Shown: positions 1,546-33,148 of the stretch, piece after piece
Layout: every line of letters starts with the position of its first letter
Position numbering within the stretch: position 1 is the first letter of the stretch
Virus record (IMG/VR): IMGVR_UViG_3300032305_000737
Span: 1 to 39,145 of that record
From: a virus
Taxonomy: Duplodnaviria; Caudoviricetes
Direction: 5' to 3' (one strand)
DNA length: 39,145 nt
Notes under the pieces: generated by a model
What the model saw: only the letters and a program-made list of their open reading frames with translations
What the model was told of the DNA's origin: nothing
Databases searched by the model: none
Position numbers and translations under genes: made by a program

Positions 1546-1573
1546 TCTGTTCTCCTGTCGTTGCATTTCCATA

Positions 1574-1610
1574 AGCCTAGGCGATTTGCCTTGGCTTGTC
1601 TAGCATTTGC
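1574..1610 (-). promoter_or_regulatory. SigA-type promoter TAGACA-17-TAGGCT with upstream GCAAATGC
   Basis: -35 at 1602-1597 and -10 at 1579-1574; the 17-mer around the -35 is 16/17 identical to 4006-4022. Confidence 0.6.
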
Positions 1611-2550: not shown

Positions 2551-2792
2551 TAGTTGCCCTCCTGTGTATCTGCCAGAAAAATAACCTTGTCGCTTTCGTG
2601 TTGTTGTAAAAATTGCTTTACGCTTGCAAGGGTTTGAAACTCAACTCTAAAGTCAATATCTCGCGTAAACATCACACGCCCCGCCCGCCATAAGTGCCCC
2701 TCTCTGTAAGCGTAGTATTGCCCGCACTCTGTGGCGTGATATGTCCCGCAATTTTTCCATTTCAAAACCTTGTTTGAAATTGTCGTGTGCAT
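2550..2792 (-). CDS. Hypothetical protein
   Basis: 80-aa ORF, TAATG-coupled at both ends. Confidence 0.75.
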   Translation of the reverse strand: MHTTISNKVLKWKNCGTYHATECGQYYAYREGHLWRAGRVMFTRDIDFRVEFQTLASVKQFLQQHESDKVIFLADTQEGN

Positions 2793-3109
2793 TAGTTCAC
2801 CCCCTGTAAACTGTCGGCGATAGCGTTACGGGTAAGGTTCTGGTGCTTGCTTGTTGTAACGCTAAATTTTTGCGCGACAACGTACCAACCGCGGGCGTCT
2901 GTGTGCCAAGCGATAGGCGTCCCATATGAAAAGACTACATAAGCAATTCTTGACTCATTCATAGCAGACTCAAGGAGTGCATATTCTTCGCGGTTCAAAC
3001 GTCCCTCGCTTGGGGTGTAATCTTTAAAGTTTCCCGATAGTGCCGACGCCTTGAACTCATCGCGGGTTGCGATGTAGTGAATAGCGTCTCTCTGGTTTAG
3101 TTGTTTCAT
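2792..3109 (-). CDS. Conserved phage early protein of unknown function (SYxTPIA...SxTTSKHQ type)
   Basis: Motifs VFSYGTPIAW and FSVTTSKHQN; GACAGGAGAA RBS. Confidence 0.8.
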   Translation of the reverse strand: MKQLNQRDAIHYIATRDEFKASALSGNFKDYTPSEGRLNREEYALLESAMNESRIAYVVFSYGTPIAWHTDARGWYVVAQKFSVTTSKHQNLTRNAIADSLQGVN

Positions 3110-3154
3110 TCTGTTCTCCTGTCGTTGTTTGGTTCTGGTAGATTTTCTACCCGT

Positions 3155-3202
3155 ACCCCGCTAGTGTCTCGAACACTTCGCACTCTGTAAAGTGTGCGGG
3201 GC
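3155..3202 (-). ncRNA. Mini tRNA-like element A
   Basis: 7-bp stem GCCCCGC/GCGGGGT enclosing a CACT/AGTG arm and an AGTG-TTCGAGA-CACT T-arm. Confidence 0.65.
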
Positions 3203-3213
3203 TGTGAGTTGCC

Positions 3214-3321
3214 TCACTTAGTTGCTTTTTTATGGTTCTTTCTTGTGCATTTGCCGCAAATCTTGTGAGCCGTAAAGGCTAGCAATAAATCGCTATCATC
3301 TCCGCATTGTTGGCATTTCAT
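3214..3321 (-). CDS. 35-aa zinc-finger microprotein
   Basis: MKCQQCGDDSDLLLAFTAHKICGKCTRKNHKKATK; TAATG coupling; it is the 3' part of track ORF 3214..3474. Confidence 0.65.
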   Translation of the reverse strand: MKCQQCGDDSDLLLAFTAHKICGKCTRKNHKKATK

Positions 3322-3494
3322 TAGAAGTTGTCCTCCCACATCTTGAAAGCCCACACGCCGACACCCGCAAGAACTAGCGCAACACCCGCGAATGGTAGAA
3401 CCTGTGCCCCGATACCCCAAGCCCATAGAAATATATTTCCTTGGTTGTAAGCGTCCTCTGTAACCTGTGCCCAAGTTGTCAAGTAGTTAATCAT
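3321..3494 (-). CDS. 57-aa membrane protein
   Basis: MINYLTTWAQVTEDAYNQGNIFLWAWGIGAQVLPFAGVALVLAGVGVWAFKMWEDNF; GACAGGAGAA RBS at 3512-3503. Confidence 0.7.
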   Translation of the reverse strand: MINYLTTWAQVTEDAYNQGNIFLWAWGIGAQVLPFAGVALVLAGVGVWAFKMWEDNF

Positions 3495-3540
3495 TTTCTG
3501 TTTTCTCCTGTCTAAGGCGGGCGGTGTTGCCCTGCCTAGT

Positions 3541-3581
3541 GCCCCCGTCGGATTGTGAACCCGTACCCGCTAGGCGGGGGC
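3541..3581 (-). ncRNA. Mini tRNA-like element B
   Basis: 7-bp stem GCCCCCG/CGGGGGC, a short arm, and a CGGG-TTCACAA-TCCG T-arm; same flanks (ACA...AC) as element A. Confidence 0.6.
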
Positions 3582-3595
3582 TGTCTTGCCCTTGC

Positions 3596-3760
3596 TTACA
3601 TATCCCAACCCTTTATATATCTCCACTCTTGGCGGATTGAGTTCTGCAATAAAGCCAAGGTGTAGAGACTTTCTCTATCCTTGCGAGCCTCTAGGGTCTC
3701 GCGGTATTGGTTAAGTGCCCCTTCTAGTAGTTCCAACTCATCAAGTGTCAAGTTCTTCAT
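3596..3760 (-). CDS. 54-aa hypothetical protein
   Basis: MKNLTLDELELLEGALNQYRETLEARKDRESLYTLALLQNSIRQEWRYIKGWDM; TAATG coupling. Confidence 0.65.
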   Translation of the reverse strand: MKNLTLDELELLEGALNQYRETLEARKDRESLYTLALLQNSIRQEWRYIKGWDM

Positions 3761-3936
3761 TACATTCTCACCCCGTTAACAATATAACCACCGCTCAAGA
3801 TGTGCTCAAGGTCTCCTAAAACTGTTTTGATAGTTTCAAGGATTTCACCCTGTGCGCCATATGCCTCCTCTGCCTTTATTTGGTTTTGAATTGCTAACTT
3901 AATCTCTGTGAGTGAGAGAGTTTCGCTTGTGTTCAT
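3760..3936 (-). CDS. 58-aa hypothetical protein, first gene of the leftward operon
   Basis: MNTSETLSLTEIKLAIQNQIKAEEAYG...; GACAGGAGAA RBS at 3950-3941. Confidence 0.7.
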   Translation of the reverse strand: MNTSETLSLTEIKLAIQNQIKAEEAYGAQGEILETIKTVLGDLEHILSGGYIVNGVRM

Positions 3937-3984
3937 TTGGTTCTCCTGTCTTCGCTTGGGGCTTATTCCCCTTGCTATGACTTA

Positions 3985-4022
3985 ACTCTCTCACGCTTGG
4001 GGGGTGCTTGTCAAGCATTTGC
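3985..4022 (-). promoter_or_regulatory. Putative early promoter TTGACA-18-GAGAGT (TGn-extended)
   Basis: Perfect -35 at 4014-4009 within GCAAATGCTTGACAAGC; the -10 is weak. Confidence 0.45.
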
Positions 4023-4046
4023 CACATATTTTTTACGCTTATGTCG

Positions 4047-4062
4047 TGTGAGATACATCACA
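4047..4062. promoter_or_regulatory. CRP/GlxR-type box TGTGA-N6-TCACA
   Basis: tgtga gataca tcaca, a perfect consensus match. Confidence 0.6.
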
Positions 4063-4122
4063 TCAACCGACAAGGGGAAATCTATAAAGCACACGGGTTA
4101 GAGATTGTCAAGGGTGAAACCC

Positions 4123-4138
4123 TGTGAGTTACATCACA
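4123..4138. promoter_or_regulatory. CRP/GlxR-type box TGTGA-N6-TCACA
   Basis: tgtga gttaca tcaca, a perfect consensus match; 11 nt upstream of a minus-strand TTGACA (4111-4106). Confidence 0.6.
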
Positions 4139-4139
4139 C

Positions 4140-4745
4140 TCGCGGAACCTGTTGAGGGTTGGATAAGTTGTTGAACTTTCAACTACTTCCCCGCATTTCA
4201 TAGTTCAATCTTTAAAGACTAGACCCCGCGAATTATGGGAGGGGGATAGTCACCTATTAAGTCTATTCATTATGCGATTATATCCTTGCCAAACTCTGGC
4301 ATTTAAACCCGCAATCCTGCGGGATTTATATTATAAACAAGACTCTAACCCTCTGGTAAAGGGTGAGGGTCTGCCTCACCTAACTATTGCGGTATCTTTT
4401 GACCCTAGGGTTGTTTAATTGGCTTACTTACTTGTATATATACTCCCATTCTAATTTTCTGTTATATTCGCTAAATGCGCCCTGACCAGGGCTTTTATAT
4501 ATATTAGCCCCCCTTATAAAGATATTTAAAAATATATTGATATTAAGTGTTCGGTTTTGGTACTTTGAACGGGTTATCTTATATGTAAAGATTAATTATA
4601 ATCTTTAACGGATTAACCTCCGTTTGCTCTACGGTTAATCCTTAATTAATATATAATATATATAACAGTTGCCACAGTTATGCCGTCTAACGGGTACCGT
4701 TTATACATCGTTTTATAACCTCTACAGAGGGCAACTTTAGGGGGC
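4140..4745. other. Non-coding AT-rich, palindrome-dense region (candidate origin, packaging site or genome end)
   Basis: No ORFs; lies at the divergence point of the two transcription directions; many inverted repeats and TA runs. Confidence 0.5.
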
Positions 4746-4749
4746 ACCT

Positions 4750-6615
4750 ATGGGACGCAAGCCAGGAATTCAGAACATCCCCAAGCGCGAGGCGCAAGAG
4801 AAAGTTCTACTCCAACTAGAGCAAGGCTCGACCATTACAGCGGCTATGGCATCTGTAGGACGTAACGACGTCACCTTCCGCCAGTGGACAATGAACGAAC
4901 CTGAGTTCAAGGAACGCTCTGACAAAGCCCGACTGGTCGGTAAAGGGGTTATCGCTGACTTAGGCGACTTGAAGGAAATCTCCTTCCCAGACTTCTGTGA
5001 GCAGTTCCTAGATACCAAGATGTTCCCTCACCACCTCAACTGGATTGATTTAATCGAGGGGCGCGAGCCGCGCTGGATACACCCTGCTATGACCTACGAG
5101 CCAGGGGCTGTCAACAGAGTGCTCGTCAACGTCCCACCTGAGCACGCTAAGTCTACGGTCATCACGACCAACTATGTGACCTACAAGATTGTGACGAACC
5201 CCAACTCACGAGTCATCATTGTCTCAAAGACTCAGGGTATGGCACGCAAGTTCCTTGGTGCGATTAAGACAAGACTTAACCACCCCGCCTTTATCAAACT
5301 GCAGACTGCTTTTGGTCCAAATGGCGGATATAAGGCAGACGCCACTACGTGGTCTGCAGATATGATTTATTTGGGTACAGGACGCGATAGTGGCGAAAAA
5401 GACCCAACAGTTCAAGCACTAGGACTTGGTTCCCAGATTTATGGTGCTCGTGCCGACTTGATTATTGTCGATGACGCTGTGATGGGTAGCAACGCCCACG
5501 AGTGGGAAAAGCAGATGGAATGGCTTCAGAAGGAAGTTATTACCCGTCTTGGACGCTACGGTAAACTTATCATCGTAGGTACCAGAGTCTCACCGATTGA
5601 CCTCTACAAGATGCTACGAGATGGCTCACAGTGGACTGGTGGCAAATCACCCTTCACCTATATGGCTATGCCAGCCGTTCTTGAGTTTGACGAGAAACCT
5701 GCAAATTGGAAAACCCTTTGGGCTAAAACTGATAGACCCGAAGGAGATGTGGACGAACCTGATGCCGACGGACTTTATCCGAAATGGGATGGACCCGCGC
5801 TCTTTACACGTCGCTCTGAGGTCGCTCCGTCAGTTTGGGCTATGGTCTACCAACAGGAAGACGTCCAAGAAGATTCAATCTTCTCACCTTCCTGTGTCGC
5901 AGGTTCCGTCAACGGAATGCGAAAGCGCGGACCACTAAAGGCTGGTAACCCAGGACATCCTAAGCACGTTGAGGGATACACCATCATTGGTCTTGACCCT
6001 GCTATGGCAGGTGCTACAGGAGCAGTCGTTTGTACCTACAACAAGGCTGACGGAAAAATCTATGTGCTAGATGCGGTCAATATGACAGACCCTACTCCAC
6101 AGAAGATTCAAAATTTAATCGAAGATTGGGTGGAGAAATACCGCCCTCAAGAATTGCGTATCGAAATCAATGCACATCAGAAAGCGTATGCGCTGGACGA
6201 CCATCTACGAAACTTCTTAGCAGGTTACGGTACGCAACTGAATTCACACTTTACTGGCAAGAATAAGTGGGACACTTCTTTTGGTGTGGCATCTATGGCT
6301 ACCCTCTTTGGTAATACTAGAGATGGCAGATTCCAAGATAACAACATCATCGAACTACCAAGCAATGAAGGCTCTGAGGGTTTAAAGACTCTTGTACAGG
6401 AACTCATTACTTGGAAGCCAGATACCAGAAACCCTACTGACGTTGTTATGGCTCTATGGTTTGCGGTTATCCGCATTAGAGAGTTAATGCAAAAGTCAAG
6501 TCAAGCATCACAGTATCAAAGCAACCGCTGGGCAACTCGCGCTCAACAAGGTCGCAGATATGCAGTCAATTTAGATGACGCATTTGCAGACCAATGGTCA
6601 AACCAATACGGATAG
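4750..6615 (+). CDS. terL: Terminase large subunit with N-terminal HTH-like extension
   Basis: Walker A-like VPPEHAKST, Walker B LIIVDD, coupling motif VGTR, RNase H-like IGLDPA and DVVMAL; upstream of the portal. Confidence 0.93.
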   Translation: MGRKPGIQNIPKREAQEKVLLQLEQGSTITAAMASVGRNDVTFRQWTMNEPEFKERSDKARLVGKGVIADLGDLKEISFPDFCEQFLDTKMFPHHLNWIDLIEGREPRWIHPAMTYEPGAVNRVLVNVPPEHAKSTVITTNYVTYKIVTNPNSRVIIVSKTQGMARKFLGAIKTRLNHPAFIKLQTAFGPNGGYKADATTWSADMIYLGTGRDSGEKDPTVQALGLGSQIYGARADLIIVDDAVMGSNAHEWEKQMEWLQKEVITRLGRYGKLIIVGTRVSPIDLYKMLRDGSQWTGGKSPFTYMAMPAVLEFDEKPANWKTLWAKTDRPEGDVDEPDADGLYPKWDGPALFTRRSEVAPSVWAMVYQQEDVQEDSIFSPSCVAGSVNGMRKRGPLKAGNPGHPKHVEGYTIIGLDPAMAGATGAVVCTYNKADGKIYVLDAVNMTDPTPQKIQNLIEDWVEKYRPQELRIEINAHQKAYALDDHLRNFLAGYGTQLNSHFTGKNKWDTSFGVASMATLFGNTRDGRFQDNNIIELPSNEGSEGLKTLVQELITWKPDTRNPTDVVMALWFAVIRIRELMQKSSQASQYQSNRWATRAQQGRRYAVNLDDAFADQWSNQYG

Positions 6616-33073: not shown

Positions 33074-33148
33074 TTACATAGTTCTCCCTTGTTGAGTACC
33101 CTCCTGTCCTCTAAGGGAGGACTATGTAACAACTTTCAGACAGGAGAA
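33074..33148 (+). promoter_or_regulatory. Predicted RBS-sequestering pseudoknot
   Basis: 17-bp stem 33074-33090/33113-33129; loop CTCCTGTC (33101-33108) is complementary to GACAGGAG (33139-33146). Confidence 0.55.

What the first reader, a model, noticed from the sequence alone, without database searches (positions are those of the whole stretch)
3137..3590. Pair of miniature tRNA-like RNAs punctuating the early transcript
Seen: two intergenic elements (3202-3155 and 3581-3541, minus) differ in sequence but share one architecture. It runs ACA, a 7-bp G-starting acceptor-like stem, one variable arm, A, a 4-bp stem with a 7-nt T-loop (G-TTCGAGA-C; G-TTCACAA-T), A, the acceptor 3' strand, AC, a second hairpin, then the GACAGGAGAA RBS. 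Compensatory changes (AGTG/CACT vs CGGG/TCCG; GC/GC vs CG/CG) indicate selection on structure. There is no anticodon arm or CCA. Known: acceptor stem plus T-arm is the minimal RNase P/RNase Z substrate, and phage P1 C4 and P4 CI RNAs are matured by RNase P. Inference: a phage mRNA-processing system that cuts the polycistron into hairpin-protected units, and/or releases 41-48 nt tRNA mimics as decoys for tRNA-targeting defences. This is the best candidate for an undescribed system here.
Basis: partly seen in the sequence, partly recalled or inferred. Interest (0 to 1): 0.85.

Follow-up and report, generated by a model that had tools for sequence, protein, structure and literature searches.

The report
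tRNA mimics punctuating phage early messages
Two short RNA folds shaped like a tRNA without its anticodon arm sit in front of early genes of a freshwater phage and are kept by matched base changes in over a hundred variants in related phages; they likely mark where the host's RNase P cuts the long early message and then stay on as a protective cap, and one of them also hides a predicted promoter.

Summary
The two elements are real and belong to a conserved family absent from Rfam. Related freshwater actinophages (closest isolates: Planktophila phages E7 and F5) gave 117 distinct versions, 1-4 per locus, always on the early strand, mostly before a hairpin and ribosome-binding site. All three helices covary. 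What is kept are the marks tRNA-processing enzymes read: G+1, an 11-12 nt arm from loop to discriminator, C56-R57, and R73-C74 never followed by C. Anticodon arm, CCA and U54-A58 are not kept. The likely host's gene table lists RNase P protein, RNase J and RNase E but no RNase Z. Best reading: RNase P cuts at G+1 and the mimic stays as a base-paired 5' cap on the downstream mRNA; release of CCA-tailed decoys is less likely. It works like organellar t-elements and shares the promoter overlay and gene shuffling of T4-type PeSL cassettes. No cut has been shown.

The parts
3155..3202 (-). Element 1 (promoter type): acceptor-like stem 3202-3196/3161-3155, D-like arm 3194-3181, T-like arm 3177-3163, bulged A 3162; predicted RNase P site 5' of G3202
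   Evidence: 70.8 bits; a seed of the model
3203..3218 (.). CRP-like palindromic box (TGTGA-N6-TCACA, 1 mismatch) abutting G+1 of element 1; also a small RNA hairpin at the would-be upstream 3' end
3186..3191 (-). Predicted -35 hexamer (TTTACA; TTGACA in most relatives) in the D-like loop, 11 nt after the box
3163..3168 (-). Predicted -10 hexamer (GACACT, NANNNT type) 17 nt after the -35; predicted start near 3156, 2 nt before N73
   Evidence: the start position is inferred from spacing
3152..3154 (-). A73-C74-G75 unpaired tail of element 1
3137..3151 (-). Downstream hairpin after element 1, no U-tract
3114..3123 (-). Ribosome-binding site (GACAGGAGAA) of ORF 3109-2792
2792..3109 (-). 105-aa early ORF after element 1; matches only PHROGs of unknown function
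3541..3581 (-). Element 2 (no promoter): acceptor-like stem 3581-3575/3547-3541, short D-like hairpin within 3574-3564, T-like arm 3563-3549, bulged A 3548; predicted RNase P site 5' of G3581
   Evidence: 53.2 bits; a seed of the model
3538..3540 (-). A73-C74-T75 tail of element 2
3515..3537 (-). Downstream hairpin after element 2, no U-tract
3503..3512 (-). Ribosome-binding site of ORF 3494-3321
3321..3494 (-). 57-aa early ORF between the two elements; no family match
3980..4138 (-). Upstream predicted early promoters without the fold (perfect CRP-like boxes 4123-4138 and 4047-4062, TTGACA sites); the likely source of read-through RNA
   Evidence: promoter function inferred

Best explanation
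These are conserved tRNA mimics without an anticodon arm, placed between early genes of Planktophila-type freshwater phages, and they likely act in cis as sites where host RNase P cuts the long early transcript, after which the mimic would stay on the downstream mRNA as a base-paired 5' cap. Shown: the fold, its conservation, its position before a hairpin and ribosome-binding site, and the promoter-like signals in half the family. Inferred steps: (1) RNA from the upstream promoters reads through the elements. (2) RNase P recognises the 11-12 nt acceptor/T-like helix, G+1 and the unpaired R73-C74 and cuts 5' of G3581 and G3202. (3) The upstream piece is left with a nearly bare 3' end and decays on its own clock. 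(4) The downstream piece starts with a 5' monophosphate buried in a G+C-rich 7-bp stem, which shields it from RNase J and 5'-dependent RNase E. (5) With no RNase Z and a hairpin right after C74, little CCA-tailed product is made. (6) In the promoter type, the same DNA also starts new RNA near N73, so the next gene is fed both by read-through and by its own promoter. Recombination at these shared leaders shuffles genes between phages, probably as a side effect.
For: Covariation: 13 of 15 pairs change on both sides, 97.9% of cells pair against 72% shuffled and 33-53% slid (rows were chosen for acceptor and T-stem pairing, but the D-like stem was not selected and has 4 of 4 pairs with double changes); 84 distinct model hits give the same picture (fitted to the model). 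Test with an unconstrained 3' half: 38 of 39. In 117 distinct cores: G+1 116, R73 117, C74 116, N75 never C, N-1 only A or C, arm length 12 nt in 79 and 11 nt in 33, C56 111 of 115, R57 115 of 115 (the model leans towards its seeds). R73-C74-nonC was also seen in all 39 and all 55 contexts where the tail was not part of the search. The arm length is kept through different builds (7+A+4, 7/5, 6/6), and the 6/6 class has U54 and A58 in 7 of 7 descriptor hits. All 107 model hits in 57 of 71 loci lie on the early strand upstream of the terminase. 113 of 117 have a ribosome-binding site within 50 nt. The likely host's table lists RnpA, RNase J, RNase E/G, PNPase, RNase PH, RNase D, CCA enzyme and CRP, and no RNase Z identifier (PMC10202952 Table S1). 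RNase P pairs with C74/C75 but cuts CCA-less precursors in vivo (PMC1874595); acceptor plus T arm is a known minimal substrate (PMC3858429).
Against: No RNA ends were seen. In the window's classes the loop is not a canonical T-loop (TTCRA 22 of 115) and the D-like loop has no G18-G19, so elbow mimicry is uncertain. N-1 is never U, the base that bacterial RNase P prefers (recalled). 62 of 117 have their own predicted promoter and 5 are followed by a separate promoter box; for these a cap on read-through RNA looks partly redundant. The N73-C74-nonC end is also the end of 15 of 21 tRNA genes of Streptomyces phage FlowerPower (counted by eye), which are presumably matured to CCA, so the tail does not rule out release. 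Host assignment rests on 97% terminase identity to E7/F5, and the absence of RNase Z rests on one genome's annotation. Three loci with 1.8-7 kb of early region had no element by either method (L094, L097, L099).
Confidence: 0.55

Rival explanations
1. Full punctuation. The mimic is cut on both sides (RNase P at G+1, another endonuclease at or just after N73/C74). The downstream mRNA then starts at its 5' hairpin, the same end that the overlaid promoter makes, and the small RNA is a by-product.
For: The downstream hairpin starts 2-4 nt after N73 in 52 of 62 promoter-type and 37 of 51 other elements. The predicted start of the overlaid promoter falls at N73 -2 to +1 in all 61 cases. Plant t-elements are cut on both sides (PMC1920247).
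Against: No RNase Z identifier in the likely host's table. Cytidines after the discriminator suppress RNase Z (PMC7479834). The hairpin leaves little single strand for RNase E or J.
Confidence: 0.14
2. PeSL-like cassette. The fold is a terminator or attenuator for upstream RNA, fused to a promoter and ribosome-binding site, and the unit serves as a recombination joint; the tRNA likeness is incidental.
For: PeSL stem-loops overlap -35 or -10 boxes, terminate transcription and mediate shuffling (PMC2839356, PMC4122927). Half the family overlaps a predicted promoter. One identical core stands before 8 distinct ORF starts, at least 7 of them different genes. Some actinobacterial terminators lack U-tracts (recalled).
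Against: A run of four T follows in only 2 of 117. 55 of 117 have no promoter, and 50 or more of these feed a gene directly. A terminator does not need a fixed 11-12 nt arm, G+1, C56-R57 or R73-C74.
Confidence: 0.13
3. Released decoy. The mimic is matured to a CCA-tailed 44-51 nt RNA that soaks up a host factor that binds the tRNA top half (an acceptor-end toxin, synthetase, EF-Tu or RNase P itself).
For: The end matches CCA-less actinophage tRNA genes. The host has a CCA enzyme, RNase PH and RNase D. Pairs 1-3 are nearly fixed in the window's classes (GCC/GGY in 107 of 117). M. smegmatis YrlA, a tRNA mimic, is cut by RNase P and gets CCA (PMC4201824).
Against: The copies are scattered before genes, not clustered, and lack their own promoter-terminator unit. 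U54, U55 and A58 drift. With no anticodon loop it cannot decoy anticodon nucleases. The hairpin after C74 would block 3' trimming. No Ro60/TROVE or tRNA-repair family was found in 39 window proteins by Pfam or 23 by PHROGs, and 'TROVE' is absent from the host table.
Confidence: 0.11
4. An uncut binding platform for a host or phage protein that sets translation or stability of the next gene.
For: It always lies in a leader; the conserved C56, R57, R59, A60 differ from a T-loop and could be a protein-binding site.
Against: It does not explain G+1, the fixed arm length and R73-C74 together. The ribosome-binding site is not part of the fold.
Confidence: 0.07

Closest known systems
t-elements of plant mitochondria (Forner et al. 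2007, PMC1920247; PMC3858429)
   Same: tRNA-like folds, some lacking arms, that separate mRNAs in a long transcript and act in cis as signals for RNase P and/or RNase Z.
   Different: Here in a phage, read by bacterial enzymes. The loop often lacks the GGTTCRANYCC motif used to find t-elements. The likely host seems to lack RNase Z. Half the copies are overlaid on a promoter. Cutting is not shown here.
PeSL cassettes of T4-type phages (PMC2839356, PMC4122927)
   Same: Intergenic units in a variable early region with a sigma70-like promoter, a structure overlapping -35/-10 and a ribosome-binding site; identical units stand before different genes.
   Different: PeSLs have a single terminator hairpin. 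These have a three-helix tRNA-like fold with no U-tract, half lack a promoter, and the promoter carries a CRP-like box.
C4 RNA of phages P1/P7 (and CI RNA of P4, recalled)
   Same: Phage RNA with a tRNA-like structure and short D- and T-loops, matured by RNase P (PMC3858429 passage).
   Different: C4 is a released antisense regulator. There is no Rfam match here, and these occur as several unlike copies before unrelated genes.
tRNA-like domains of tmRNA and bacterial Y RNA (YrlA; PMC4201824)
   Same: Acceptor and T arms without a working anticodon; substrates of RNase P and the CCA enzyme.
   Different: No tag frame, no Ro60-binding module, no Ro60 gene found; much shorter; embedded in mRNA leaders.
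RNase III sites in the T7 early polycistron (recalled)
   Same: A host ribonuclease cuts a long early phage transcript into gene blocks at structured intergenic sites.
   Different: Those are long hairpins for RNase III, not tRNA mimics.

Membership tests
canonical tRNA | anticodon arm and full cloverleaf | tested here: not met
   ARAGORN 0 and Rfam 0 in the window; 41-48 nt cores with one inner hairpin
canonical tRNA | 12-bp acceptor/T branch (PMC5389517) | tested here: met
   3' arm 12 nt in 79 and 11 nt in 33 of 117, usually 7 bp + unpaired A + 4 bp; true 6/6 or 7/5 in the distant class
canonical tRNA | T-loop U54 U55 C56 R57 A58 | tested here: inconclusive
   C56 111 and R57 115 of 115, but TTCRA only 22 of 115; U54 and A58 in 7 of 7 distant-class descriptor hits
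t-element (organellar) | tRNA-like fold between or before coding regions of a long transcript | tested here: met
t-element (organellar) | mapped RNA ends coincide with the fold's ends (RNase P or Z cut) | not testable with these tools
   only contigs available
bacterial RNase P substrate | G+1 in a paired acceptor-like helix with a single-stranded R73-C74(-C75) tail | tested here: met
   G+1 116, R73 117, C74 116 of 117; C75 absent; CCA is not essential
bacterial RNase P substrate | cleavage 5' of G+1 by RNase P | not testable with these tools
   needs an in vitro assay or RNA end mapping
PeSL cassette | sigma70-like promoter overlapped by the structure, then a ribosome-binding site | tested here: inconclusive
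   met by sequence in 61 of 62 elements with a -35, absent in 55 of 117; activity untested; the strict TATAAT scan did not list it
PeSL cassette | stem-loop is a transcription terminator | tested here: inconclusive
   no U-tract (2 of 117) and no terminator call at either element; U-less termination untested
PeSL cassette | identical units flank different genes in related phages | tested here: met
C4 / c4-2 and other Rfam RNA families | score at the Rfam gathering threshold | tested here: not met
bacterial Y RNA (YrlA) | Ro60-binding motif and a nearby Ro60 gene | tested here: not met
   no Rfam match; no TROVE family in the proteins scanned

The most novel reading that the evidence does not exclude
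Phages of the most abundant freshwater bacteria use a mobile, sequence-variable tRNA mimic as a two-in-one switch. As DNA it is a CRP-controlled promoter. As read-through RNA it is an RNase P site whose product is a tRNA-shaped 5' cap against RNase J, in a host that has lost RNase Z. This would be tRNA punctuation reinvented by phages, with a cap instead of a released RNA, and it doubles as the joint for early-gene shuffling.
Probability: 0.35. Interest if true: 0.8.

Novelty: new variant of a known kind. Interest (0 to 1): 0.63.

Why it matters
If true, host RNase P, known mainly for tRNA 5' ends and a few small RNAs, is a routine processor of early mRNA in a very common phage group, and a tRNA mimic can serve as a 5' stabiliser. 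The overlap of a promoter with the mimic, where the -35 and -10 are kept through paired changes in the stems, is an unusual case of two codes on one sequence. It is directly testable: cultured phages E7 and F5 carry 3 and 2 copies and their host is in culture. The elements could also serve as compact processing-and-stabilising parts for actinobacterial expression.

Tried and rejected
Rfam at gathering score (window) and by E-value (2900-4800; ten related loci): only chance-level matches, none on the window's elements. ARAGORN: no tRNA in the window, and one tRNA-Trp in 23 related loci. RNA evidence: four runs held 5-7% of the words, all as contigs, two probably DNA; they show neither ends nor strand and were not used. 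Streptomyces phage FlowerPower (terminase 46% identical): no element; the model's best hits are the 3' halves of tRNA-Glu and tRNA-Lys at 16.5 and 14.5 bits. The genome-contig scan gave four bins, none named as an actinobacterium, so host tRNA ends, the P15 loop of host RNase P RNA and RNase Z in other Nanopelagicales stay untested. Fremin et al. 2023 catalogue: no hit for six short motifs in three files or for two motifs and four contig numbers in a fourth; two zip files and three oversized files could not be read, so a match there is not excluded. One search used wrong offsets and was replaced; the 'D 4/4 = 0' line is an indexing slip and is not used. A pairing test of a D-loop G with C56 was uninformative: three of the four non-C56 cases are loop-register shifts. 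I first took C74 as an RNase Z block and dropped that as a strong argument. A phage attachment site is unlikely: several unlike copies per genome and no integrase among the proteins scanned.

Full report
Setting. The window is a complete 39-kb phage record with direct terminal repeats. Its left 4.7 kb holds small leftward genes, among them a WhiB-like factor and a transglycosylase, opposite the terminase and portal genes. The terminase is 97% identical to two public records whose names match Planktophila phages E7 and F5, isolated on 'Ca. Planktophila' LanE-43 of the Nanopelagicales (PMC10202952; part 1 of 2 of the text read). The host of the window's phage is therefore inferred, not shown.

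The observation. A descriptor with G+1, C56-R57 and R73-C74 finds only these two in the window and none in 300 shuffles of the early region. Rfam and ARAGORN find nothing.

The family. I gathered relatives through the downstream protein (22 loci), the terminase (best 80 of 598), DNA patterns (67 and 24 loci) and the two isolates. A model built from 44 elements gave 107 hits in 57 of 71 loci. Those 71 were the 22 protein loci, the 2 isolates and the 47 of 80 terminase loci that held roughly 1 kb or more of early region; some overlap each other or the seeds. Every hit is on the early strand upstream of the terminase, 1-4 per locus. Merging two model alignments (211 rows) left 117 distinct cores. 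Six of the 11 model-negative terminase loci carry a more distant build with a 6/6 or 7/5 helix and a canonical T-loop; a pattern scan for it gave 27 distinct hits, 24 fully paired and 3 unrelated. L094, L097 and L099 had none. The loose descriptor counted 77 hits on the early sense strand against 9, 10 and 19 on the control strands of 44 loci.

The structure is under selection. In the seed alignment 13 of 15 pairs change on both sides and 97.9% of cells pair, against 72% shuffled and 33-53% slid; RNAalifold finds 13 of the same pairs unaided. Those rows were chosen for acceptor and T-stem pairing, so the cleaner tests are the D-like stem (not selected; 4 of 4 pairs with double changes) and the search by 5' half alone: 38 of 39 distinct hits have a 7/7 acceptor, against 102 of 1238 cross-pairings. 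Counts are of sequences, not of independent events.

What is kept points to tRNA-processing enzymes. Of 117 cores: G+1 116, R73 117, C74 116, N75 never C, N-1 A or C only, loop-to-discriminator distance 12 nt in 79 and 11 nt in 33; of 115 seven-base loops: C56 111, R57 115, A58 only 51. The tail holds where it was not searched for (39 of 39; 55 of 55 after dropping two truncated loci). The 12-bp branch is the standard measure of tRNA (PMC5389517 passages). Acceptor plus T arm is a minimal RNase P substrate, and C4 of P1/P7 is a phage example (PMC3858429 passages; PMC4919922 passages). RNase P pairs with C74 and C75, the C74 pair being exchangeable, and it cuts CCA-less precursors in vivo (PMC1874595 passages). 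Against a tidy fit: the loop of the window's classes may fold as U-A and U-G pairs with a three-base loop, there is no G18-G19, and N-1 is never U.

An overlaid promoter. Element 1 begins right after a TGTGA-N6-TCACA box. Eleven bases later TTTACA (TTGACA in most relatives) sits in the D-like loop. The same box, 10-11 nt spacing and TTGACA recur without any fold: 49 distinct sites at 10 nt and 22 at 11 nt, beside 69 folded ones at 11 nt; 50 of 69 unfolded sites in a recount have NANNNT 17 or 18 nt further on. Among the 117 cores, 62 have a -35-like hexamer, 54 of these the box, and 61 of 62 have NANNNT at 17 or 18 nt; 0 of the 55 others have it at the matching positions. The two spacings put the final T in different stems, so the signal is kept in two ways. 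Some variants that share the type-1 D-arm have lost both hexamers but keep the fold (L131, L146), so the fold does not depend on the promoter. The predicted start lies at N73 -2 to +1 (inferred from a 6-nt gap). The host table lists a CRP whose recognition helix resembles that of actinobacterial CRPs that bind this box (recalled); no adenylate cyclase is listed. The strict TATAAT-type scan does not list this promoter, and its activity is untested.

What follows the element. 113 of 117 have a ribosome-binding site within 50 nt; 5 are followed by a separate promoter box. A hairpin starts 2-4 nt after N73 in 89 of 113, with a mean energy near -9 against -3.5 kcal/mol shuffled, and a T run follows in only 2 of 117. 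The core of window element 2 stands unchanged before 8 distinct ORF starts, the shuffling pattern described for PeSLs (PMC2839356 and PMC4122927 passages).

Which enzymes are there. Table S1 of PMC10202952 (searched, not read whole; rows seen from cds2 to cds1389; the tool marks the file as cut) lists RnpA, CCA enzyme, RNase PH, PNPase, RNase J, RNase III, RNase D and RNase E/G. It has no K00784, TIGR02651, COG1234 or PF12706, and only three metallo-beta-lactamase proteins: ComEC, RNase J, GloB. Streptomyces and Mycobacterium do have RNase Z and mostly CCA-less tRNA genes (PMC4681348 and PMC10673834 passages). In hosts with RNase J, monophosphorylated cleavage products are degraded from the 5' end and 5' roadblocks stabilise RNA (PMC3997798 passages); that a paired 5' end resists RNase J and RNase E is recalled. 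So a single RNase P cut that leaves the mimic as a cap fits the enzyme set best (0.55). The opposing fact is that 15 of 21 FlowerPower tRNA genes end in the same N73-C74-nonC way, so release and CCA completion cannot be excluded. Cutting on both sides (0.14), termination (0.13), a decoy (0.11) and an uncut platform (0.07) remain.

Comparison and novelty. It works like the t-elements of plant mitochondria (PMC1920247 passages) and shares context with PeSLs, but the defining cut of a t-element could not be tested, and it fails the tests for tRNA, C4, Y RNA (PMC4201824 passages) and all Rfam families. Nine literature searches (listings and abstract starts seen) turned up no description of such elements in phage early regions. 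The library lacks most subscription papers, and part of the Fremin et al. catalogue (PMC10690425 passages) was unreadable. Earlier notes of this scan describe similar mimics in other phages; they are unchecked and add no evidence, but suggest that the kind recurs.

Verdict. Real, conserved and apparently undescribed: a new variant of tRNA punctuation, in phages, with a testable model in a cultured phage-host pair. Interest 0.63.

Noticed in passing
window 3203-3218, 4047-4062, 4123-4138; many related loci: The early promoters of this phage group look like a fixed class: CRP-like box, 10-11 nt, TTGACA, 17-18 nt, NANNNT. The box centre falls near -54, unlike the E. coli class I and II positions (recalled). 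148 of the distinct boxes had a -35-like hexamer 10-12 nt downstream. The host table lists CRP but no adenylate cyclase.
   Followed up: partly
window 3164-3149 and 3573-3559 (minus): The two elements share a 15-16 nt stretch (one base indel) in different structural registers: 3' end and tail of element 1, D-arm and T-stem start of element 2. It may record the birth of one type from the other by duplication.
   Followed up: no
L084:5031 region, L282-L324: The distant 6/6 class has a canonical T-loop, a GG-containing D-like loop without a stem, G73-C74-G75 and an upstream hairpin, closer to the tRNA-like domain of tmRNA; one copy per locus seen.
   Followed up: partly
window 4587-4660: A+T-rich nested inverted repeats between the early promoters and the terminase gene; a candidate replication origin or packaging signal.
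   Followed up: no
window 1566-1603 (minus): A further predicted early promoter (TAGACA, 17 nt, TAGGCT) before a 17-nt ribosome-binding-site block identical to the one after element 1.
   Followed up: no
L198:15986-18057: Streptomyces phage FlowerPower tRNA genes mostly encode only C74 and often abut the next tRNA after one base.
   Followed up: partly
L199-L202: Contigs of this phage group sit in four genome bins named as Burkholderiaceae, Saccharimonadales and Methylococcus, probably mis-binned; L200 carries the 6/6 element.
   Followed up: no
L036:6802-6874: One relative carries a true tRNA-Trp gene just upstream of its terminase.
   Followed up: no
window 33094-33125 (minus): Weak model hit (16 bits, E 0.016), a plain hairpin on the strand opposite the late genes; probably unrelated.
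   Followed up: no
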